Assembly (NCBI GenBank): GCA_002748835.1
Contig: PDTL01000013.1
Location: 140,510-204,509, forward strand
DNA length: 64,000 nt
Direction: 5' to 3'
Origin: Deltaproteobacteria bacterium
GTDB taxonomy: Bacteria; Desulfobacterota; Desulfobacteria; Desulfobacterales; GCA-2748835
Made by a program: the position numbers and the translations under genes. Under the pieces are notes generated by a model. It saw nothing but the letters and a program-made list of their open reading frames with translations, was not told the origin of the DNA and searched no databases. Positions 1,186-8,511 of the stretch are shown here, piece after piece. The stretch's first letter is position 1. Every line of letters begins with the position of its first letter.

Positions 1186-1256
1186 TGAAAAAACGAAAGG
1201 GTTGGAATCCGTTTTGGATGACAACCCTTTGCTGGTTGATGGTGCCGAAGGCCGGA
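1186..1256. repeat. attL-like repeat (tRNA-Leu 3'-end remnant plus terminator-like hairpin)
   Basis: tgaaaaaacgaaagggtt...acaacccttt...tgatggtgccgaaggccgga matches 14369-14437. The first 18 nt and the last ~17 nt are identical; the middle has diverged. Confidence 0.7.
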
Positions 1257-1457
1257 TCCGGTTGTTGGGTATAACTATTTGATTTTATTATATCTGATAG
1301 TGCGGTTTGACTCAGTTTTATGGGTTAAACCGCACTCTATATGCACCTAAAATGACTTTTTGCTATGTAGGTAAAAATCCCGTCAATTTTCAGTAATTAT
1401 TGGCGGGATTTCTTTATATGGAAAACTCTCTTCTCCGTCTTCATGACAATTATTTTT

Positions 1458-1487
1458 TTGACCTATATTGCCTAACGGGTGTATAAT
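1458..1487 (+). promoter_or_regulatory. Putative sigma-70 promoter for the NTase module
   Basis: TTGACC (1458-1463), 18-nt spacer, TATAAT (1482-1487), about 35 nt upstream of the ATG at 1522. Confidence 0.5.
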
Positions 1488-1521
1488 TTTTGTATATGTG
1501 TTAGACAATCCGGGGCAGTCT

Positions 1522-1836
1522 ATGAGCTACATCAAAGGTGTGATTCAGGAAGAGTATGATCGTTTGAATGCTTTAGTTGATAAGTATCAAGCGAAAATCG
1601 CCGAATATCCCAAGGGCGGCATTTCCATTAAAAAACGTAATCACAGGGAATACGTGTATCTGGCAGTTCGTAAAGCGGATAAAGTTAAATTTCAATACAT
1701 CGGCGCTGTGGATTCGGAAAAGGCGGGAGTTGTCAAAGACCAGATAAATACCAGAAAACAGTTCGAAGAAAAGCTGAAGCAGGTCAAAGCCGATCTGAAG
1801 GAAATAGAAAAGGTGTTGCATGGAAGAAAATTATAA
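1522..1836 (+). CDS. Small coiled-coil protein, putative partner/antitoxin of the downstream NTase-fold protein (DUF6788-like by recollection)
   Basis: ATG at 1522 inside the 1468-1836 ORF, whose upstream part overlaps the promoter. Contains the motif REYVYLAVRKADKVKFQYIG. 3' end overlaps the next ORF by 17 nt. Confidence 0.55.
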   Translation: MSYIKGVIQEEYDRLNALVDKYQAKIAEYPKGGISIKKRNHREYVYLAVRKADKVKFQYIGAVDSEKAGVVKDQINTRKQFEEKLKQVKADLKEIEKVLHGRKL

Positions 1837-2506
1837 CCTCCTTGAGGCCGTTCTGAAAGAGCTTCAGGTCAAGGGGGTATTAGACGGGCTTGTCATCATC
1901 GGCAGCTGGAGCCAATATTTTTACCGGATCCTATTTGAGAATGCGCCCGAAATACCCTTGATCAGAACGACGGATGTTGATTTTCTTGTGCCGAATCCAG
2001 CACGGTTTAACAGCAAGGTTGATATTACCGAGTTGCTGAATTCTCTTGGGTTTGACAGTGATTTCGATTACCGCACCGGACTTGTTAAATACGTCCATCC
2101 CGATTTGGAGATTCAGTTTTTAACCCCTGCACTTGGCAGGCCGAAGGACACCCCATATGAAATCAAGAAACTCAATGTCAACGCTGAAGGTCTTGCTTAT
2201 ATGAAAATGCTGCAGGACTACAAGTTCAGCATGCAGCACAGGGATATCTCCGTATGGCTTCCGGAGCCATCCGCATTCATCCTGCATAAGATTTTAATCA
2301 GTCAGAAACGGAAGGACACGGCCAAACAGGAAAAGGATCTGAGGTCAGCAATCAGTATTGGTGAATTCTGCTTGGATTGCAGCGAACACCGGGAGCGGAT
2401 GAAGTTTATATTTATGCAGCTTCCCAAAAAATGGCAGAGAGATATATTGGGTGTTGTGAAACAGCATTCTCCCGATTTGCGTGATTATTTATCTGAAAAC
2501 ATTTAG
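1820..2506 (+). CDS. Nucleotidyltransferase-fold protein (GSU2403-like / AbiEii-MenT-like architecture)
   Basis: 228 aa. Pol-beta NTase signature: IIGSWSQ (G-S) followed by TTDVDFLV (D-x-D). Translationally coupled to the upstream small ORF. Confidence 0.6.
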   Translation: MEENYNLLEAVLKELQVKGVLDGLVIIGSWSQYFYRILFENAPEIPLIRTTDVDFLVPNPARFNSKVDITELLNSLGFDSDFDYRTGLVKYVHPDLEIQFLTPALGRPKDTPYEIKKLNVNAEGLAYMKMLQDYKFSMQHRDISVWLPEPSAFILHKILISQKRKDTAKQEKDLRSAISIGEFCLDCSEHRERMKFIFMQLPKKWQRDILGVVKQHSPDLRDYLSENI

Positions 2507-2784
2507 ACCCGTCGATTTGAAGGGCCTATCGATTCGTTAGGACCTTCAAAATTCCATAATTAATTGTCTGTAAATGTATAAACTCATCGATCAGCAGGCA
2601 CCACAACGGTTACGAGGGTGATTCCGGAGCGGCTGAATGATGGGGCGGCGGAGCGTGATCGGGTGAGTGATCAACAGTTAAGACGAAGGGTGCAACGACA
2701 GGACGAGGATATTTGCCCGAAACGGGCAGATAACACATCATTTCAACTGGTCTTCAAAAAAACTAAACCTTCTGTCTCTATTTT

Positions 2785-2812
2785 TTGCGCTGAAAAACAT
2801 TGCGCTGAAAAA
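2785..2812. repeat. Two exact 13-nt direct repeats TTGCGCTGAAAAA with 15-bp period (possible operator)
   Basis: Copies at 2785-2797 and 2800-2812, immediately upstream of a TTGACA hexamer (2816-2821). Confidence 0.5.
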
Positions 2813-2906
2813 TACTTGACAAACCCATACGATTTATTGAACCATTAAGGCGTTGCAGCAAATTCTGTAACTCGGTTTGGCGACCGGAATTGACAGAAGG
2901 CGTGCG

Positions 2907-2940
2907 AGCGCCCTGATCCTTTTTTTGTGGCGCTTTTTTT
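2907..2940 (+). terminator. Possible intrinsic terminator
   Basis: AGCGCC (2907-2912) pairs with GGCGCT (2929-2934), followed by a T7 run. The loop is large (16 nt), so the call is weak. Confidence 0.3.
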
Positions 2941-2964
2941 GCGTCCAAATGGAGGTAATATATT

Positions 2965-3056
2965 GGGCGGGTCGTGTGCGGAGACCTTCGGGTCTGCCGG
3001 GTTCCTTTTGTCCCCGGTTCGCCAACCGCATGCGGTCCGCCCATTTGTTTGGCGAC
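2965..3056 (+). ncRNA. Structured RNA element or 5' leader upstream of the zinc-ribbon ORF
   Basis: Nested helices by hand folding. P1 GGGCGG 2965-2970 / CCGCCC 3037-3042. P2 GTGTGCGG 2974-2981 / CCGCATGC 3026-3033. P3 AGACC-TTCG-GGTCT 2982-2995. P4 GCCGGG 2996-3001 / CCCGGT 3013-3018. The junction strand TCGCCAA (3019-3025) is complementary to TTGGCGA (3049-3055). Confidence 0.4.
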
Positions 3057-3098
3057 AGATGGCGGATTTCCTTCACCTCATACAAAAGGAGACCCATC

Positions 3099-3512
3099 AT
3101 GCACAAATCCCACAAACCAATCCCGGACAATACCAATCCTAATGTTTTTCGCTGCCCCGTTTGCGGTGGTACAGAGTCTAAGCCAAACAATTTATATCCC
3201 AACAATCGCTATTGCGCTGAATGCGGCATTCGTATGAAGTCTTTCGACTTCTCCGCGATGAAAGATCTCTTTTCCGCCATGTCCACCCTTCGTCTATCCC
3301 GTGAATATTTGACGACCGGCTGGGATCTCCGAACCATTTATACCGAGAATATACAAATCAATGCCATGATTGAGGCTGAAAAGCACGGAATAGAAATCAG
3401 TCGATCATTGCCGTCACAAGAACCTATGGAGGCGGTCTTGCTTCGCATGATCTCAAACGCTCTGAATGCTTACGATCGCTTCCGGGGCGCCAACCACTTG
3501 GTTCGAAATTAA
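3099..3512 (+). CDS. Zinc-ribbon protein, unknown function
   Basis: ATG at 3099 follows the AAGGAG RBS. Has CPVCGG...CAECG (CxxC...CxxC). The upstream part of ORF 2877-3512 overlaps the structured non-coding region. Confidence 0.55.
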   Translation: MHKSHKPIPDNTNPNVFRCPVCGGTESKPNNLYPNNRYCAECGIRMKSFDFSAMKDLFSAMSTLRLSREYLTTGWDLRTIYTENIQINAMIEAEKHGIEISRSLPSQEPMEAVLLRMISNALNAYDRFRGANHLVRN

Positions 3513-3582
3513 AGAGCAGCTGTAGGTAAGTAGCAGCACGGGCCCTGCGGGGCAAGTTGTCGGGCTTTTTTTTATTTAATTG

Positions 3583-3610
3583 TTGACTTCCAGCATTTTT
3601 ATGTTAGACT
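3583..3610 (+). promoter_or_regulatory. Putative sigma-70 promoter
   Basis: TTGACT (3583-3588), 16-nt spacer, TAGACT (3605-3610), upstream of the ATG at 3665. Confidence 0.35.
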
Positions 3611-3664
3611 CTAAATCAAGAGTCGAACGTAAGGTTGTCAGACGTTAACCGAGGGGAAAATATA

Positions 3665-4408
3665 ATGACTAAGGTAAGGACCGGCGACATTGAAGAGTTC
3701 AACAGGCCTTGGCTTGCTGTTCGGGTTGTCGCCATGCTTGGTCCCGAGATGCCTGTTAAGGTTATTCAAACATGGACGGACCGTGAGTTGCTGGATTTTT
3801 TTAATCCAAAACCCGGAAAAAATATTCCCCGGCTTTATTCTCTGGGGAATGCGCTTCAGCTGCATGGAATGTATGCTGCGTATAGCAGAGGCTTCACGAT
3901 AAAAAGTTCCGTTGAAATTGGTCGGCATGTAAGGGAGCTCGGTTTTGATCTCGTTCAAGATTATGGTTGTGATTGGACAGGTTTGAATAATGTCATACCG
4001 GAACTATTCGAGGTCAAGCTGCTGTTTTGGATAAACGGCGATGAAATGTTTTCCAAATGGACAAGTGTGGGTCAATTGAAATCTTGCTTGGATAAACACG
4101 GTGATCTCACAGAGGTGATGGATAAGGGGAACAAAGTCCTTGTAAGCGTTCTTGATGTTGGGGGGTTGGTATATGCTGTCATGAACAACTACTTTGAAAT
4201 AGATGACAGGATTAATCAACTTGCATTGGAAGGTAAATTGAAGCCTTTCCCAGAAAGATCGAAATGGGAAGGACTATTGAAGGGGTTGGGTGGAGATGAA
4301 AACGGAATGCCACTTGATCCAAATCATCCCTGGAATAAATCTGAGGATTTAAACCACCCAATGAATAAGCGAGCTAAAACCCTAAAAAGGAGAAAAAAAG
4401 ACGAATAG
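3665..4408 (+). CDS. Hypothetical protein (ORFan, basic C-terminal tail)
   Basis: 247 aa from the ATG at 3665, with a GAGGGGA RBS. I recognise no family. Confidence 0.55.
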   Translation: MTKVRTGDIEEFNRPWLAVRVVAMLGPEMPVKVIQTWTDRELLDFFNPKPGKNIPRLYSLGNALQLHGMYAAYSRGFTIKSSVEIGRHVRELGFDLVQDYGCDWTGLNNVIPELFEVKLLFWINGDEMFSKWTSVGQLKSCLDKHGDLTEVMDKGNKVLVSVLDVGGLVYAVMNNYFEIDDRINQLALEGKLKPFPERSKWEGLLKGLGGDENGMPLDPNHPWNKSEDLNHPMNKRAKTLKRRKKDE

Positions 4409-4582
4409 CTGATAAACGGGACGGCCCGGCAGCGCGCCAACGCATACCGGGCCTACCGAAAATGACGACCACTTAACCCACTAAGTTTAAATTTGGGCTC
4501 CATTCTTCGGCACCACCTTTGTACCCCATCTGGTCAAAAGTGTCAATGTGGAGCCTATAACCACAAGAGGAAACATACATTT

Positions 4583-4843
4583 ATGACCAAGCGAAAAAGT
4601 CCAGACTCCAAAAAACTATCTTTTGAAGATCAATGGTTCCGTGTTCCTGAAGCTGCATCATACTGCGGAATGGGCGTCAGGACCGTCCGCAAGTGGTTGA
4701 ATGAGGGCCTGAGGCATGTACGCCTGCCATCCGGAACAATCCTCATCAAGCGCAGTGCCGTTGACGAGTTCCTGAATAGTTTCGAGATAAACGAAAATTT
4801 CGTTGATTCGGTTGTTGAAGACGTTTGCTCAGGTCTGATCTGA
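4583..4843 (+). CDS. Excisionase/AlpA-like helix-turn-helix DNA-binding protein
   Basis: 86 aa from the ATG at 4583. VPEAASYCGMGVRTVRKWLNEGLRHVRLPSGTILIKRSAVDEFL fits the excisionase-family HTH pattern. Its stop overlaps the next gene's start (TGATG). Confidence 0.7.
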   Translation: MTKRKSPDSKKLSFEDQWFRVPEAASYCGMGVRTVRKWLNEGLRHVRLPSGTILIKRSAVDEFLNSFEINENFVDSVVEDVCSGLI

Positions 4844-7270
4844 TGACACCTCACAAACCTGAATATCTCAAACCGGATCCGGACGGAATCCCGGAAGAGC
4901 TGAAGTGCATCCCCCAGTGGGTTGTCTGGTGTGCGGTCTGGCGGAAGGGCAAGTGGTCGAAAGAGCCACGGTGCCCGATGAACCCTGATAGGCATGCCAA
5001 AGTCAATGATTCATCAACCTGGGGATCCTTTCACCATGCGATTCAATGTTTCCAGAACAGTTCCGGAACGCTTGATGGTGTTGGCTTCGTTTTAACTGAT
5101 CAGGATCCATTTTGCGGGTGGGACTTGGATAAATGCCGGGATCTGAAAACCGGCGGGCTTGAGTCATGGGCTTCCAATCTACTTTTTGAGATGGGTACAT
5201 ACACCGAAATCTCGCCATCTGGAACAGGGTTGCGTCTCATATATAAAGGAACGCTGCCCCCTGGCGGAAGGCGTAAGGGTAAAATCGAGGTTTACGAAAG
5301 TGGTCGATACCTGACGATCACTGGGCATCAGTCTTCCCCCTCTCCTGTGGAAATAATGAGCAGGTCAAATGAGGCGGCGGCGATACATAAAAAAATATTC
5401 GCTCAAGCTGAGAAGGAACAGGAACGGTTCAAGCCATCTTACGGTGGCGGTACTCACGATGATGATGCCCTCTTGCAGCATGCATTTACCTGGAAGAATG
5501 GACCTGAAATCCGGCGGCTGTTTGAAGGAGATGCCGGAAACGATCATTCCGCAGCTGATCAGTCTCTTTGTAATCACCTTTCATTTCTTTTTGATCGTGA
5601 TCCCAACCGGATTGATGCGATGTTCCGCCGCTCAGGGTTGATGCGCGATAAGTGGGATGAAAAACATTTTTCAGATGGTCGGACCTACGGGGAAGCGACG
5701 GTCGAGAAGGCTATTGCCGGAACTCGTACAACCTACCAGCAAAGAAACAGCGACCGCCAGTTTCATGAAAAGCAAGGTAGCCATCAGAGGGATAACGGGA
5801 AGTCGCAGGCATTAAAGGTAAAAGGTTATACCGCTGCCGAACTGGTAATGATGGAGTTTCCTGAACCCAAGTGGGCGATACCTGGGATTCTACCGGAAGG
5901 CCTGAACATCCTTGGCGGCAAGCCGAAGCAGGGTAAAAGCATATGGGCACTGAATATCGCTCTTTCTGTGGGGTTTGGGGGTATTGCCTTGGGGAAAATT
6001 TCCGTTGAAGCCGGAACCGTTTTGTATCTTGCGCTTGAAGATGTTCCAAGGCGCTTGAAGTCACGCATTGAGCAAATGACCAATTATGAGGGACGGGCAC
6101 CAGAAAACATTCACCTTTATACCCAGTGGCCGAGAATGGGAGCTGGGGGGATTCGAGCGCTTGATGAAAGAGATTCAAAAGTATGGAAATGTCCGGCTTG
6201 TCATTATCGATACGCTGGCGAAATTTCGGCCGGTATCGAGCAGTAGCAAGAACGTCTATGAATCAGATTATCAAGCGGTCGATGGGATTAAGCAGATTGC
6301 GGATAAGTACGAGGTGTCTGTCCTGCTGATTCACCACCTGCGAAAATCGGAAGCAGAAGACATCATGGACACGTTTTCAGGTTCACTTGGACTGACCGGA
6401 GCTGCTGATGGTCTGCTTGTCCTGGAACGGAAAACCGGCCAAGCAGATGCATTATTGCACCTGAACGGGCGAGATGTTGAGCCAGCGGAACTGGCTTTGA
6501 AGTTTGATCCGTCAATGCTGTCATGGAATCTGTTGGGGGATGCTCAATCTGTTAAATCCACAGAGGAGAGGCAACGTTTATATGATGCACTGAAGGAGCA
6601 TGCAAGCGATGATGGTATATCTCCTAAAGAACTAACTGATATTACAGGGCTTAAATATCATTATATTAGAAAGACTCTTCCTATATTTATAAAGGAAGGG
6701 AGTATTAGAAAGCATGGAAGGGGTAAATATAAATATGTCGGGAACAATGGGAACAATGGGAACAATGGGAACAATGGGAACATTGGGAACAATGCTGAAG
6801 ATGTTGCAGAATCCGGGAACATTGAACCAATTGTTCCCGCAGGGGAGAAAGCCGGGAACAATCCAGAAGCTTTTAATAACAGTGAATTAGATGTGATTGT
6901 TCCCATTGTTCCCAATGTTCCCACCTATTCAGCAACCGGGAACAATGCCACCTCCTTCTGTGGAAGTTCTATTCATGGGGATAATGGGGGTATTGGGGAC
7001 AATGGGGATGTTGGGGGTAATGGGGGTATTTCAGAATGTCCCCAAGCTTCAGGAATGTCCCCGGCCGGGGATAATAGCCGGGGATATTATAATGTCTTTA
7101 AAAACAGTATGTTAGATGTATATGCCCCCGATGTCCCCATTACCCCCACCCAATCAATGAGTGGTGATGATACCCCCGATAGAATATCCCCGGATAAAAA
7201 TGGAAGGGGACAAAGGGACGGGTGGGTAAGTGATCAGGAACCCATCCCTGTAACTGAAGACTTTTTCTAA
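4843..7270 (+). pseudogene. Bifunctional primase/polymerase + RecA-like (AAA_25/RepA-type) replication protein, split by a frame change at a G6 run
   Basis: Frame 1 (4843-6246) has the Prim-Pol motifs (WDLD, EISPSGTGLRLIY), a helical primase C-terminal domain and the Walker A GKPKQGKS. Frame 2 (from ~6150 to 7270) continues the ATPase (VRLVIIDTLAKF, VLLIHHLRK). Removing one G at 6145-6150 gives one continuous ORF. Confidence 0.8.
6740..7191. repeat. Iteron array, candidate replication origin embedded in the 3' end of the pri-rep gene
   Basis: 13 copies of GGGAAC(A/T)(A/T)T (9 forward, including 6 in tandem at 6740-6793; 4 reverse) lie in 6740-6946. 15 copies of a GGGG(A/G)(T/C)N(A/T)T-like 9-mer lie in 6977-7191 (8 forward, 7 reverse). 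The latter flank an AT-rich spacer at 7089-7121. Confidence 0.6.
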
Positions 7271-7312
7271 TCGGGCGAAAGTGTCCGGTAACGATCAAAG
7301 GAGTGATGATCA

Positions 7313-7681
7313 TTGATAGAGTATGTCACCTGCACCAAATGCGGAAAGCTATTCAAACGGAATACGGATGAACCATGGAAACAGCTATGCCTTTCCTGTT
7401 ATCACCGGCAGCAACGGCAAACTGATCGGAGCAGTCAGGATGACGCGGCATACTGGAGATCCAGATACTACGACGAAAAACGAAAGATTGAACAGCTGAC
7501 CAGCTCACTGCATAGCCTTGGGGCTTTCGATTCACGACAGTCAACCGACCTGGGGGCGTTCATGAAGGATAACCTGAAAACGATTCTGTTGTTGGTGCAT
7601 CCAGACAAGCACCGGGGCCTGCCAGCGGCAACCAGAATAACCCAAGACCTTTTGGATTTCAGAAAACGGGGGATTCTCTAA
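7313..7681 (+). CDS. Zinc-ribbon protein with a C-terminal J-domain-like HPD motif
   Basis: TTG start at 7313 after an AAGGAG RBS. Has CTKCG...CLSCY, then LLLVHPDKH at the C-terminus. Confidence 0.5.
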   Translation: MIEYVTCTKCGKLFKRNTDEPWKQLCLSCYHRQQRQTDRSSQDDAAYWRSRYYDEKRKIEQLTSSLHSLGAFDSRQSTDLGAFMKDNLKTILLLVHPDKHRGLPAATRITQDLLDFRKRGIL

Positions 7682-8040
7682 TGGCAACCAAACCCAAGAA
7701 ATATTGTGCGGCGTATCCCTGTCCGAATCTGGTACCGGCTGGTGAAACATATTGTCACCTGCATAAACCAGAGCAGGCCAGCAAAGAGACGGTCCCGTTC
7801 TATTCAACATCACAATGGCAGAAGCTTAGGCGCTGGTATCGGAAGCGTCACCCGTTCTGCGAACTCTGCTTAATAGATGGGCTGACCGTCCCCGCTGAAC
7901 TGGTGGACCATATTGTCGAGATCAAGGACGGGGGCAGCAAAACAGATCCGGAGAACCTTCAGTCTCTATGCAGGCGTTGTCATGCCATCAAAACGAGTAA
8001 GGAAAGAAGAAAACGAGGGGTGAAAGTGTATACCTACTAA
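7681..8040 (+). CDS. HNH endonuclease
   Basis: CELC...DHIVEIKDGG...NLQSLCRRCHAIKT. Sits immediately upstream of the terminase genes, as in HK97-like cos phages. Confidence 0.85.
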   Translation: MATKPKKYCAAYPCPNLVPAGETYCHLHKPEQASKETVPFYSTSQWQKLRRWYRKRHPFCELCLIDGLTVPAELVDHIVEIKDGGSKTDPENLQSLCRRCHAIKTSKERRKRGVKVYTY

Positions 8041-8136
8041 AATCATCGGGTAGGGAAGCTGTCACACCAGTATGGCCCCCTCACGTGCATTACTGAGGGC
8101 TAAAAGCGATTTACCCAGTAAAAAGGAAAGCTAATC

Positions 8137-8511
8137 ATGGAACCTATTAAAAGACTATGGCAGAAACCGTCCAACCTGACCGGATACGGAGCCGAGTTTT
8201 ACAAGAGAGTCGGAAAACAGCTGCTCTCTGTGGGAGTCCTGACAGAACTGGACCGGGAAAGCTTCGCGGCGCTGGCTGGAGCCTTCCACCTGATGCAGGC
8301 ATCACTTGATGCGGTTAACGAGTCCGGCGTAAACGTCCGGGGCTCACAGGATGAAGTCAAAAAGAATCCGGCCCTGACCACCTATAAAAACGCATCGGAT
8401 ATTTACCACCGTCTGTCTCGGAAATTCTTTTTGACACCTGGGGACAGAGAAGGGGTCAAGATCGAGAAACCGAAACAGGCCGACAACGGTAAGGGGAAAT
8501 TTTTTGACTAA
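8137..8511 (+). CDS. Terminase small subunit (P27 family-like)
   Basis: 124 aa. Position and sequence pattern (GAEFYKRVGKQL...ELDRESFAALAGAF...KKNPAL) fit P27-type TerS. Confidence 0.75.
   Translation: MEPIKRLWQKPSNLTGYGAEFYKRVGKQLLSVGVLTELDRESFAALAGAFHLMQASLDAVNESGVNVRGSQDEVKKNPALTTYKNASDIYHRLSRKFFLTPGDREGVKIEKPKQADNGKGKFFD

What the first reader, a model, noticed from the sequence alone, without database searches (positions are those of the whole stretch)
6740..7191. Dense array of 28 nine-bp iterons in two families inside the 3' coding end of the replication gene: candidate satellite origin
Seen: family 1, GGGAAC(A/T)(A/T)T, has 13 copies in 6740-6946, with six in perfect tandem at 6740-6793 and four inverted, including three in tandem at 6896-6922. 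Family 2, GGGG(A/G)(T/C)N(A/T)T, has 15 copies in 6977-7191: six tandem forward at 6977-7030, two more forward at 7067 and 7080, then an AT-rich stretch at 7089-7121, then five inverted copies at 7121-7191. The region is still an open reading frame. It encodes low-complexity peptides (GNNGNNGNNGNNGNIGNN, IVPIVPNVP, GDNGGIGDNGDVGGNGGI), so the DNA repeats dictate the protein sequence rather than the reverse. Established: PICI/SaPI origins are iteron sets flanking an AT-rich region next to the rep gene. Inference: this is the island's ori, unusually embedded in the rep ORF. The two iteron families could reflect dual specificity or a hybrid origin.
Basis: partly seen in the sequence, partly recalled or inferred. 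Interest (0 to 1): 0.7.

Follow-up and report, generated by a model that had tools for sequence, protein, structure and literature searches.

The report
Duplicated iteron replication origin inside rep
The 28 nine-base repeats are almost certainly the binding sites that mark the replication origin of a 13-kb integrated phage satellite; this layout is common among relatives of its replication protein, and the unusual point is that the origin is duplicated, with the second copy's repeats changed together.

Summary
GGGAACWWT occurs 13 times in the window, all within 6740-6946. GGGGRYNWT occurs 12 times exactly, plus 3 in-register one-mismatch copies, within 6977-7191. Some copies are inverted and some are out of codon phase, so these are DNA-level repeats.

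The repeats start at the first codon after the winged-helix domain of a PrimPol / SF4-helicase / wHTH Rep. That Rep belongs to a 13.2-kb cf-PICI-like island in tRNA-Leu. The encoded tail is predicted to be disordered.

Among 205 related loci, a 9-bp tandem array right after the wHTH is the rule. Many loci carry an inverted array of the same 9-mer about 90 bp downstream. The 9-mer differs from locus to locus. The rep stop codon falls either before or after the arrays. The natural plasmid pBAL has the same 6 forward + 3 inverted layout.

This is therefore a PICI/SaPI-style iteron origin. Being embedded in rep is normal for this family, with precedents in lambda O and N15 repA.

The two "families" are a tandem duplication of one ~235-bp origin module with concerted iteron change (GGGAAC to GGGGRY). 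That is rare among relatives. No binding or replication was tested. The island's rep (frameshift) and terL (stop codon) look broken.

Verdict: new variant of a known kind, moderate interest.

The parts
4843..7270 (+). rep gene. Domains in order: PrimPol (NrS-1-like, with HBD), SF4 RepA/DnaB-like helicase (AAA_25), winged helix, and a disordered tail. The gene is split into ORFs 4825-6246 and 6086-7270 by one extra G in the G6 run at 6145-6150.
   Evidence: Pfam: NrS1-1_pol-like_HBD 2e-25; AAA_25 split over the two ORFs. PDB profile hits: NrS-1 primase 5e-43, RSF1010 RepA 1e-11. Foldseek: DnaB and T7 gp4. Frames and junction.
6542..6739 (+). Winged helix-turn-helix domain of Rep, the presumed iteron reader. 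Its recognition helix contains YIRKTL. It ends at the codon before the first iteron.
   Evidence: AF2 model: H131-150, H158-165, H169-182, E185-187, E193-195, with pLDDT above 90 up to residue ~197. Weak profile hit to the CooA wHTH. Homologs carry HTH_5, HTH_24, IclR or MarR Pfam hits at this position.
6740..6793 (+). Module 1: six tandem forward iterons, GGGAACAAT (one is GGGAACATT).
   Evidence: TRF period 9, 6.1 copies, 95% match; exact matches.
6815..6862 (.). Module 1: scattered iterons in the spacer, at 6815(+), 6830(-) and 6854(+).
6865..6895 (.). Module 1: AT-rich stretch (73% AT) containing TTTAATAACAGTGAATTAGATGT. Candidate unwinding element.
   Evidence: AT profile. The motif is conserved between the two modules (repeat family D3).
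6896..6922 (-). Module 1: three tandem inverted iterons. One further forward copy lies at 6938-6946.
   Evidence: TRF period 9, 3.1 copies. Inverted-repeat pair I1 is 28 nt and 96% complementary to the forward array.
6977..7030 (+). Module 2: six tandem forward iterons, GGGG(A/G)(T/C)N(A/T)T, heterogeneous in sequence.
   Evidence: TRF periods 9 and 18.
7035..7088 (.). Module 2: scattered iterons at 7035(-), 7054(-), 7067(+) and 7080(+). Three of the four are out of codon phase.
7089..7120 (.). Module 2: AT-rich stretch (77% AT) containing TTTAAAAACAGTATGTTAGATGT.
7121..7191 (-). Module 2: three tandem inverted iterons (7121-7147; two carry one mismatch) plus inverted copies at 7169 and 7183.
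7192..7270 (+). End of the Rep tail, with the acidic/aromatic C-terminal tip ...PVTEDFF followed by the stop codon.
   Evidence: pBAL Rep ends ...GSEDF and L101 Rep ends ...LDTAF.
1236..1256 (+). att repeat, left end of the island.
   Evidence: A 21-bp exact direct repeat of 14418-14438.
13239..14438 (+). Tyrosine integrase (13239-14390) and the right att repeat (14418-14438). The att repeat overlaps the 3' end of tRNA-Leu(gag), which lies at 14422-14506 on the minus strand.

Best explanation
The region 6740-7191 is the replication origin of a 13.2-kb integrated, cf-PICI-like phage satellite.

Rep. The element's Rep is a single polypeptide with four parts in order: a PrimPol primase, an SF4 (RepA/DnaB-like) hexameric helicase, a winged-helix domain, and a disordered tail.

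Origin layout. The origin starts at the first codon after the winged helix. It follows the layout known from SaPI/PICI origins. A tandem set of iterons in one orientation comes first (six copies at 9-bp spacing). A spacer of about 100 bp follows, ending in a short AT-rich stretch. Then comes a tandem set of three iterons in the opposite orientation.

Inferred mechanism:
1. The winged-helix domains of Rep subunits bind the 9-mers on both sides.
2. The AT-rich stretch melts.
3. The helicase loads itself.
4. The PrimPol domain makes the first primer.

Why the origin can sit inside the gene. The repeat unit is 9 bp, which equals three codons, so the origin can lie in frame without breaking the gene. 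It is then translated as a flexible tail. In relatives, that stretch links the winged helix to a C-terminal Cys-rich domain or an acidic tip.

The two modules. In this window the whole origin module has been duplicated in tandem. Module 1 (GGGAACAAT, nearly perfect copies) is probably the cognate site set of the resident Rep. Module 2 is a paralogous copy whose iterons have all shifted to GGGG(A/G)(T/C). Sister elements use that iteron class as their only origin.

What is shown: the repeat anatomy, the domain architecture, the disorder prediction, and the family-wide conservation of the layout with different 9-mers. What is inferred: binding, melting, loading, and which module fires.
For: 1. 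Anatomy and statistics. Family 1 is confined to 6740-6946. Family 2 has 15 copies in 215 bp against about 1.3 expected. The repeats occur in both orientations and in different codon phases.

2. Position. The AF2 model is confident through a canonical winged helix ending at 6739. Every residue encoded by the repeats has pLDDT below 50.

3. Family-wide conservation.
- The best tandem period in the 145 bp after the wHTH is 9 bp in 91 of 135 related loci. In control segments inside the helicase coding region it is 9 bp in 74 of 539.
- Strong tandem arrays occur in 42% of loci against 0.6% of controls.
- Thirty-seven non-redundant loci have a forward array followed by an inverted array of the same 9-mer. 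The median gap is 90 bp. Forward copy numbers peak at 3 and 6, and inverted copy number peaks at 3.
- The 9-mer sequence differs between loci.

4. DNA-level rather than protein-level function. In 13 of 55 clear cases rep stops within 12 codons of the wHTH and the arrays are non-coding (examples L134 and L155). In 32 of 55 cases the ORF reads through the arrays.

5. A natural autonomous plasmid. The 8.3-kb plasmid pBAL/pATHE01 of Caldicellulosiruptor bescii carries this Rep family. It has six perfect forward ATTCACTCT copies and three inverted copies inside rep. It is described as a native plasmid in PMC3643907.

6. Match to the established PICI/SaPI origin. That origin lies immediately 3' of rep, has two iteron sets flanking an AT-rich region in opposite orientation, and is read by a C-terminal winged helix of a self-loading helicase (PMC6092414, PMC9371898).

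7. Iteron distance correlates with wHTH distance after controlling for helicase distance (partial Mantel r = 0.19, p = 0.0005).

8. Duplication. The two modules align at 75% identity. They share the spacer motif TTTAAnAACAGTnnnTTAGATGT, whereas relatives L001 and L004 share a different motif at that place.

9. Which module is cognate. Reps with YIRKTL or YVRKTL in the recognition helix (the window, L004, L006, L003) have GGGAAC iterons. Reps with YITKTL or YIKKTL (L001, L084) have GGGG iterons.
Against: - No experiment or read-level data exist. No public sequencing run holding this stretch could be listed.
- The AT-rich stretches are short (about 30 bp) and only moderately AT-rich. The family-wide AT excess before the inverted array is small (+6%, p = 0.004).
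- The covariation signal is weak and partly phylogenetic. Iteron distance also tracks helicase distance.
- The recognition-helix rule rests on six proteins.
- In the sequence as given, rep is frameshifted and terL carries an in-frame TAG. The origin may therefore no longer fire in this particular copy.
- Only 37 of 205 loci pass the strict forward-plus-inverted detector. Many relatives have weaker or differently organised repeats.
Confidence: 0.8

Rival explanations
1. The repeats are Rep-binding sites, but some or all of them are not the initiation site. Instead they would act in copy control, autoregulation, incompatibility or handcuffing. Under this view module 2 in particular would be a control locus or a cis-acting enhancer, comparable to the second iteron cluster (crr) of satellite phage P4 (from my own knowledge) or to the control iterons of iteron plasmids.
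For: There are two separate clusters with different iteron quality (17.2 against 12.8 bits). Only one cluster is seen in nearly all relatives. L102 also carries extra modules. P4 replication depends on the alpha protein and a cognate cis site (PMC6092414, discussion).
Against: Module 2 keeps the complete origin layout, not just binding sites: six forward copies, an AT-rich motif and three inverted copies. Relatives that have a single module, including the plasmid pBAL, must use that module as their origin.
Confidence: 0.1
2. The function lies in single-stranded DNA. The forward and inverted arrays would extrude as a long hairpin or cruciform. Rep/PrimPol would recognise that structure as a priming site, rather than binding double-stranded iterons that flank a melted AT-rich region.
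For: Folded as single-stranded DNA, module 1 gives -45.9 kcal/mol (z = -7.9) and module 2 gives -38.2 kcal/mol (z = -3.8). For the PrimPol-helicase plasmid pRN1, the 166 bp downstream of the rep gene are essential for replication (PMC4234260, abstract). From my own knowledge, that stretch contains a stem-loop.
Against: The hairpin potential follows automatically from having inverted arrays, so it is not independent evidence. The six-against-three copy asymmetry and the scattered single copies in both orientations fit protein-binding sites better than a stem. SaPI origins with the same layout are bound as double-stranded DNA (PMC9371898).
Confidence: 0.05
3. The repeats are selected at the protein level, as a low-complexity linker or tail of Rep, and have no DNA-level role.
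For: The frame is kept open for 176 codons (P about 3e-5). Many relatives have a Cys-rich domain or an acidic tip after the tail, so a translated linker is needed.
Against: Inverted copies encode unrelated peptides (GNN against IVP). Some copies are out of frame. In 13 of 55 relatives the same arrays lie after the stop codon. The peptide is not conserved between homologs, whereas the DNA layout is.
Confidence: 0.02
4. The repeats are a packaging signal (pac or cos region, or a TerS binding site) for the island's own HNH-TerS-TerL module.
For: The island encodes HNH, TerS and TerL starting about 400 bp downstream. Small-terminase binding sites are often repeat arrays (from my own knowledge).
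Against: The arrays follow the Rep winged helix in relatives that have no packaging genes nearby. Examples are the plasmid pBAL and island L001. The position is fixed relative to rep, not relative to terS.
Confidence: 0.03

Closest known systems
SaPI / PICI replication origins (SaPI1, SaPIbov1, EcCICFT073)
   Same: The origin begins immediately 3' of the Rep DNA-binding domain. Two iteron sets in opposite orientation flank an AT-rich stretch. Rep is a self-loading hexameric helicase with a C-terminal winged helix, fused to or partnered with a primase. The element is a phage satellite in a tRNA-type att site (PMC6092414, PMC9371898).
   Different: Here the helicase is RecA-fold SF4 (RSF1010 RepA / DnaB / T7 gp4-like), not SF3 or SF6. 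The primase is an NrS-1-type PrimPol. The iterons are 9-mers in strict 9-bp tandem, not 5-6-mers. The origin is translated as part of Rep. The whole module is duplicated.
Lambdoid phage ori inside gene O
   Same: Iterons and an AT-rich tract lie inside the initiator's own coding sequence. Extra iterons add extra residues to the protein (PMC7466680).
   Different: Lambda O is not a helicase or a primase. From my own knowledge, it recruits host DnaB through protein P, its iterons are 19-bp and internally palindromic, and they sit in the middle of the gene between two folded domains.
N15 RepA and P4 alpha (primase-helicase-origin binder)
   Same: One multifunctional protein carries primase, helicase and origin recognition. 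In N15, bidirectional replication starts within the repA gene (PMC2847241).
   Different: From my own knowledge, those proteins use an SF3 helicase and a different primase fold. No 6+3 nine-base-pair layout is known for them. This comparison was not made here at the sequence level.
pBAL / pATHE01 of Caldicellulosiruptor bescii
   Same: The Rep belongs to the same family (32% identity over 97% of the helicase-wHTH query). It has six perfect forward 9-mers and three inverted 9-mers inside rep, directly after the wHTH.
   Different: It is a free 8.3-kb plasmid in a thermophilic Firmicute. It has a single module, a different 9-mer (ATTCACTCT), and a Cys-rich domain after the tail. None of the four pBAL-mentioning papers returned is a study of its replication; I opened only PMC3643907.
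Capsid-forming PICIs (cf-PICIs)
   Same: The element is 13.2 kb and has an integrase, an AlpA-like HTH protein, a replication module, and HNH, TerS, TerL, protease-capsid and portal genes. No tail or lysis genes were found. Criteria are taken from bioRxiv 10.1101/2025.02.11.637232.
   Different: No head-tail adaptor or connector genes were found. The capsid is fused to its protease and precedes the portal gene. terL and rep are interrupted.

Membership tests
PICI/SaPI-type replication origin | Lies immediately 3' of the replication initiator (or of its DNA-binding domain). | tested here: met
   The first iteron starts at 6740, the codon after the last confidently folded wHTH residue. The difference is that the ORF continues through the origin.
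PICI/SaPI-type replication origin | [quoted passage not shown] | tested here: met
   Each module has six forward copies, an AT-rich 30-mer (73% and 77% AT) and three inverted copies. The AT-rich part is short.
PICI/SaPI-type replication origin | Iterons on the two sides point in opposite directions. | tested here: met
   The same is seen in 37 non-redundant relatives.
PICI/SaPI-type replication origin | Rep is a helicase with a C-terminal winged helix that binds the iterons specifically. | not testable with these tools
   The helicase and winged-helix folds are predicted. Binding was not tested. Covariation of the wHTH with the iteron is weak.
PICI/SaPI-type replication origin | The rep-ori segment drives autonomous replication. 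| not testable with these tools
   There is only indirect support. The plasmid pBAL has this Rep with internal arrays, and it is the only replication-type gene among the three annotated features in the 5.7-kb stretch I examined of this 7-feature record.
cf-PICI | Size about 10-18 kb, with an integrase and its own att site. | tested here: met
   21-bp att repeats at 1236 and 14418 give 13.2 kb. The integrase is at 13239-14390 next to tRNA-Leu.
cf-PICI | Packaging module: capsid, protease, portal, HNH, TerS and TerL. | tested here: met
   Pfam and PHROG hits. terL has an in-frame TAG at 8861-8863.
cf-PICI | Head-tail adaptor and connector genes. | tested here: not met
   No such hits were found among the island ORFs that were scanned. 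There is no room between terL, capsid, portal and int. Four ORFs at the left end have no hits and could hide divergent versions.
cf-PICI | No lysis genes and no complete tail module. | tested here: met
   None were detected in 1236-14438.
Lambdoid ori-in-initiator arrangement | The initiator lacks helicase activity and recruits the host DnaB. | tested here: not met
   Rep here carries its own SF4 helicase and PrimPol. It resembles lambda only in having the origin inside the gene.

The most novel reading that the evidence does not exclude
The window may capture an intermediate in origin-specificity switching. The origin module would have been duplicated in tandem. One copy kept the old iteron, while the other changed all of its roughly 15 sites in concert to a different iteron class. 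That class (GGGG...) is the sole origin of sister elements. The element would then be replicable by two Rep specificities: its own, and that of a related co-resident satellite or helper.

More broadly, there may be a large and so far undescribed clade of SF4 PrimPol/Toprim-helicase-wHTH replicons. These include satellites, integrative elements and plasmids from Desulfobacterota to Actinomycetota and Bacillota. They share a 9-bp, six-plus-three iteron origin that is facultatively translated as a disordered Rep tail. The six copies would match the six winged helices of one hexamer.
Probability: 0.2. Interest if true: 0.7.

Novelty: new variant of a known kind. Interest (0 to 1): 0.5.

Why it matters
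The finding extends the PICI/SaPI origin layout, which was described as unique to PICIs (PMC6092414). It now appears with a different helicase superfamily and in a much wider set of mobile elements, including a natural thermophile plasmid.

It also gives a simple sequence rule for locating origins in such elements: look for 9-bp tandem repeats directly after the Rep winged helix, then for their inverted copies about 90 bp downstream.

The facultative translation of the origin shows how a DNA element with a three-codon period can move in and out of a gene. The duplicated module with diverged iterons is a natural starting point for studying how Rep-iteron specificity, and hence incompatibility between satellites, evolves.

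If confirmed, the pBAL origin could be useful for vectors in Caldicellulosiruptor.

Tried and rejected
- **Public sequencing runs for 5600-7400.** None could be listed. I could not decide whether the rep frameshift is real or a homopolymer error.
The host is inferred only loosely, as Desulfobacterota-like, from the nearest Rep relatives.
- **Exact search for GGGAACAAT x 2.7 in viral contigs.** There were six hits and none encodes this Rep family. Four look like unrelated low-complexity coding sequence. L168 and L170 have inverted copies as well, and L168 seems to be a different Rep type with a Cys-rich end. Not pursued.
- **Module 2 acquired from a GGGG-type relative (hybrid origin).** Module 2 aligns about as well to module 1 (score 155) as to L001 (score 130). 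It shares the spacer motif only with module 1. I rejected acquisition in favour of in-situ duplication, though not decisively.
- **Promoter and terminator scan of 4300-8200.** Counts were at or below shuffle expectation.
- **PADLOC and PHROG scans of the four left-end ORFs.** No hits.
- **Region near tRNA-Phe (57432).** Only housekeeping genes; there is no second island.
- **Literature searches for an origin described for cf-PICIs or for this Rep family.** Nothing specific was found. This is absence of evidence in an incomplete library.
Full report
**1. Observation**

Tandem Repeats Finder reports period-9 arrays at 6740-6794 (6.1 copies, 95% match), 6896-6923 (3.1 copies, the reverse complement of the first) and 6975-7030.

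GGGAACWWT has 13 exact matches in the 64-kb window, all between 6740 and 6946. Nine are forward and four are inverted. Shuffles give 2.8 ± 1.7 for the whole window.

GGGGRYNWT is too degenerate to be enriched window-wide (30 found against 28.8 expected). However, 12 exact copies plus three in-register one-mismatch copies fall within 6977-7191. Matches with up to one mismatch occur at 5.85 per kb elsewhere, so about 1.3 would be expected there.

- The two "families" are two copies of one ~235-bp module. They align at 75% identity and have the same order of parts: six forward copies, a spacer with scattered copies, a conserved TTTAAnAACAGTnnnTTAGATGT motif in the local AT maximum (73% and 77% AT), three inverted copies, then CACC.
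- Four family-2 copies are out of codon phase.

**2. Context**

The repeats lie in a 13.2-kb island bounded by a 21-bp direct repeat at 1236-1256 and 14418-14438. The right repeat overlaps the 3' end of tRNA-Leu(gag). The island sits between a leuB-like gene and the tRNA-Leu, and GC content drops inside it.

Genes in order:
- Four ORFs without informative hits, one of them matching NTP_transf_8.
- An AlpA/excisionase-like HTH_17 protein.
- rep.
- A small Zn-ribbon ORF.
- HNH endonuclease, TerS and TerL.
- A protease-capsid fusion and the portal protein.
- The integrase.

This is cf-PICI-like by the criteria in bioRxiv 10.1101/2025.02.11.637232, except that no adaptor or connector genes were found.

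Two genes are interrupted:
- rep is interrupted by one extra G in a G6 run at 6145-6150. Reading G5 instead gives ...PRMGAGGFERLMKEI..., which matches the family consensus.
- terL is interrupted by an in-frame TAG at 8861-8863.

**3. The Rep protein**

The repaired 808-residue protein has these parts:
- An NrS-1-type PrimPol with its helix-bundle domain (Pfam 2e-25; PDB profile hits to NrS-1 primase at 5e-43).
- A RecA-fold helicase of the RSF1010 RepA / DnaB / T7 gp4 kind (AAA_25; 1g8y at 1e-11; Foldseek top hits are DnaB and gp4).
- A C-terminal winged helix.

The AlphaFold model is confident (pLDDT above 90) through the winged helix. Confidence falls below 50 from residue 201 to the end. 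Residue 197 is the first iteron codon. Everything the repeats encode is therefore predicted to be disordered.

The frame nevertheless stays open for 176 codons (P about 3e-5), while the other five frames carry 4-17 stops.

**4. Relatives**

The closest database proteins are at most 49% identical over the full length. In the helicase-wHTH part they reach at most 64%, and named hits are mostly Desulfobacterales and similar taxa.

The tails of these proteins carry different tripeptide repeats right after the conserved GKYxY end of the wHTH. Each has a second repeat that is the reverse-complement reading of the first. Examples are GNT and SVP, and TLD and IKG.

At the DNA level, L001, L003, L004 and L006 each have one module of the same design as the window's modules. 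Their iterons are GGGGGTWWA, GGGAACACY, GGGAACAAC and GGGAACAAT respectively.

Across 135 loci from genomes and metagenomes:
- The best tandem period in the 145 bp after the wHTH is 9 bp in 91 loci. In control segments of the helicase coding region it is 9 bp in 74 of 539.
- Strong arrays occur in 42% of loci against 0.6% of controls.
- 54 of the 57 strong arrays have period 9.

With 75 further viral contigs added to the 135 (about 205 after dropping near-duplicates), 37 non-redundant loci pass a strict test for a forward array followed by an inverted array of the same 9-mer. Forward copy numbers peak at 3 and 6. Inverted copy number peaks at 3. The median gap is 90 bp. There is a small AT excess just before the inverted array (+6%, p = 0.004).

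The stop codon of rep is not fixed relative to the arrays. It lies within 12 codons of the wHTH in 13 of 55 clear cases, which makes the arrays non-coding. In L134 the TAG is part of the iteron itself. The ORF reads through by at least 40 codons in 32 of 55 cases.

The 9-bp period is therefore a property of the DNA element and not of codons. Being a multiple of three, it lets the origin sit inside or outside the ORF.

**5. A free plasmid with the same design**

tblastn against plasmids found the 8.3-kb native plasmid pBAL/pATHE01 of Caldicellulosiruptor bescii. The match is 32% identical over 97% of the helicase-wHTH query.

Its rep carries six perfect ATTCACTCT copies directly after the wHTH. 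These are followed by scattered copies, three inverted copies, a Cys-rich domain and an ...SEDF end. PMC3643907 confirms that pBAL is a native plasmid. None of the four pBAL-mentioning papers returned is a study of its replication; I opened only PMC3643907.

**6. Interpretation**

The layout is that of the PICI/SaPI origin. That origin lies immediately 3' of rep, has two iteron sets in opposite orientation around an AT-rich region, and is read by the C-terminal winged helix of a self-loading helicase (PMC6092414, PMC9371898).

I conclude that the region is the island's origin (confidence 0.8). Binding, melting, helicase loading and priming are all inferred.

Origins inside initiator genes are classical: lambda ori in gene O (PMC7466680) and N15 ori within repA (PMC2847241). 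In this Rep family the arrangement is the commoner state.

Iteron distance correlates with wHTH distance after controlling for helicase distance (partial r = 0.19, p = 0.0005). The signal is weak and partly phylogenetic.

**7. The two modules**

Only one other locus among about 205 has repeated modules (L102), and there the iteron is the same in each. No other locus has two iteron classes.

The evidence favours an in-situ duplication with concerted change in one copy:
- Both classes are used alone by relatives. GGGAAC is used in L003, L004 and L006. GGGG is used in L001 and L084.
- The window's two modules share a spacer motif with each other.
- L001 and L004 have different iterons but share a different spacer motif, AGTAATGACAAkGGT.

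Reps with YIRKTL or YVRKTL in the recognition helix go with GGGAAC iterons. Reps with YITKTL or YIKKTL go with GGGG iterons. The window has YIRKTL. Module 1 is therefore probably the cognate set. This rests on six proteins.

Module 1 is also far more homogeneous than module 2 (17.2 against 12.8 bits).

**8. Rivals**

- **Protein-level selection alone** is excluded by the inverted copies, the out-of-frame copies and the non-coding examples.
- **A packaging site** is unlikely, because the arrays follow rep in relatives without terminase genes.
- **A control or incompatibility role** for module 2 remains possible.
- **A single-strand hairpin origin** is possible, but its only support is the fold energy that any inverted repeat would give (z = -7.9 and -3.8).

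**9. Verdict**

It is a new variant of a known kind: a PICI-style iteron origin served by an SF4 PrimPol-helicase-wHTH Rep, facultatively translated, and here duplicated with diverged iterons. Interest is moderate (0.5). The family-wide regularity and the duplicated module are the parts worth following up.

Noticed in passing
window 6145-6150: rep is split into two ORFs by one extra G in a G6 homopolymer. With G5, the protein reads through and matches the family consensus. This could be a real slippage mutation or a sequencing error. Relative L006 also shows frame breaks in its rep.
   Followed up: partly
window 8861-8863: There is an in-frame TAG inside the large terminase gene (…GDR*QARQM…), splitting it into ORFs 8504-8863 and 8876-10099. 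Together with the rep frameshift, this suggests that the island is decaying.
   Followed up: partly
window 1236-1256 and 14418-14438: A 21-bp exact direct repeat (TTGATGGTGCCGAAGGCCGGA) bounds the island. The right copy overlaps the 3' end of tRNA-Leu(gag). These are the att sites, and they give an island length of 13.2 kb.
   Followed up: yes
window 7250-7270; L164 2160-2174; L101 about 2280-2297: The disordered Rep tail ends in an acidic/aromatic tip (…TEDFF here, …SEDF in pBAL, …LDTAF in L101). This resembles the C-terminal interaction tips of SSB and T7 gp4 (from my own knowledge). The translated origin may act as a tether for a partner-binding tip.
   Followed up: no
window 7313-7681: A small ORF lies directly after rep and carries a CxxC…CxxC zinc-ribbon signature (weak DUF5342 hit). 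In many relatives a Cys-rich domain (a different Cys pattern, not compared further) is instead fused to Rep after the iteron-encoded tail (P0023, P0034, P0049, L004, pBAL).
   Followed up: partly
window 10253-13176: The capsid gene encodes a protease-major capsid fusion (571 aa) and precedes the portal gene. No head-tail adaptor or connector genes were found, so the gene order and content differ from described cf-PICIs.
   Followed up: partly
window 1468-4408: Four ORFs at the left end of the island are possible cargo. One matches NTP_transf_8 and the others have no Pfam, PHROG or PADLOC hit.
   Followed up: partly
L102 (metagenome contig WNGQ01001333.1), 42-637 bp after the wHTH: This relative has two to three origin modules in tandem, all with the same iteron (CGTAATCAG). 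It is the only other multi-module case seen among about 205 loci.
   Followed up: partly
L168 (IMGVR_UViG_3300010346_001953), about 8870-9210 after reverse-complementing the stored locus (as done): GGGAAC iterons occur here in both orientations, next to what looks like a different Rep type that ends in a Cys-rich domain. There is no tblastn match to this helicase family. The same iteron core may be used by unrelated initiators.
   Followed up: no
Actinomycete loci L009-L083: Dozens of Streptomyces, Nonomuraea and other actinomycete genomes carry this Rep family. The 9-bp repeats after the wHTH there are built on GTGTCCCC or CTGTCCGG, the reverse complement of a GGGGACAC-like core. This suggests a conserved GGGrAC-type core across phyla. 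The elements were not characterised.
   Followed up: no
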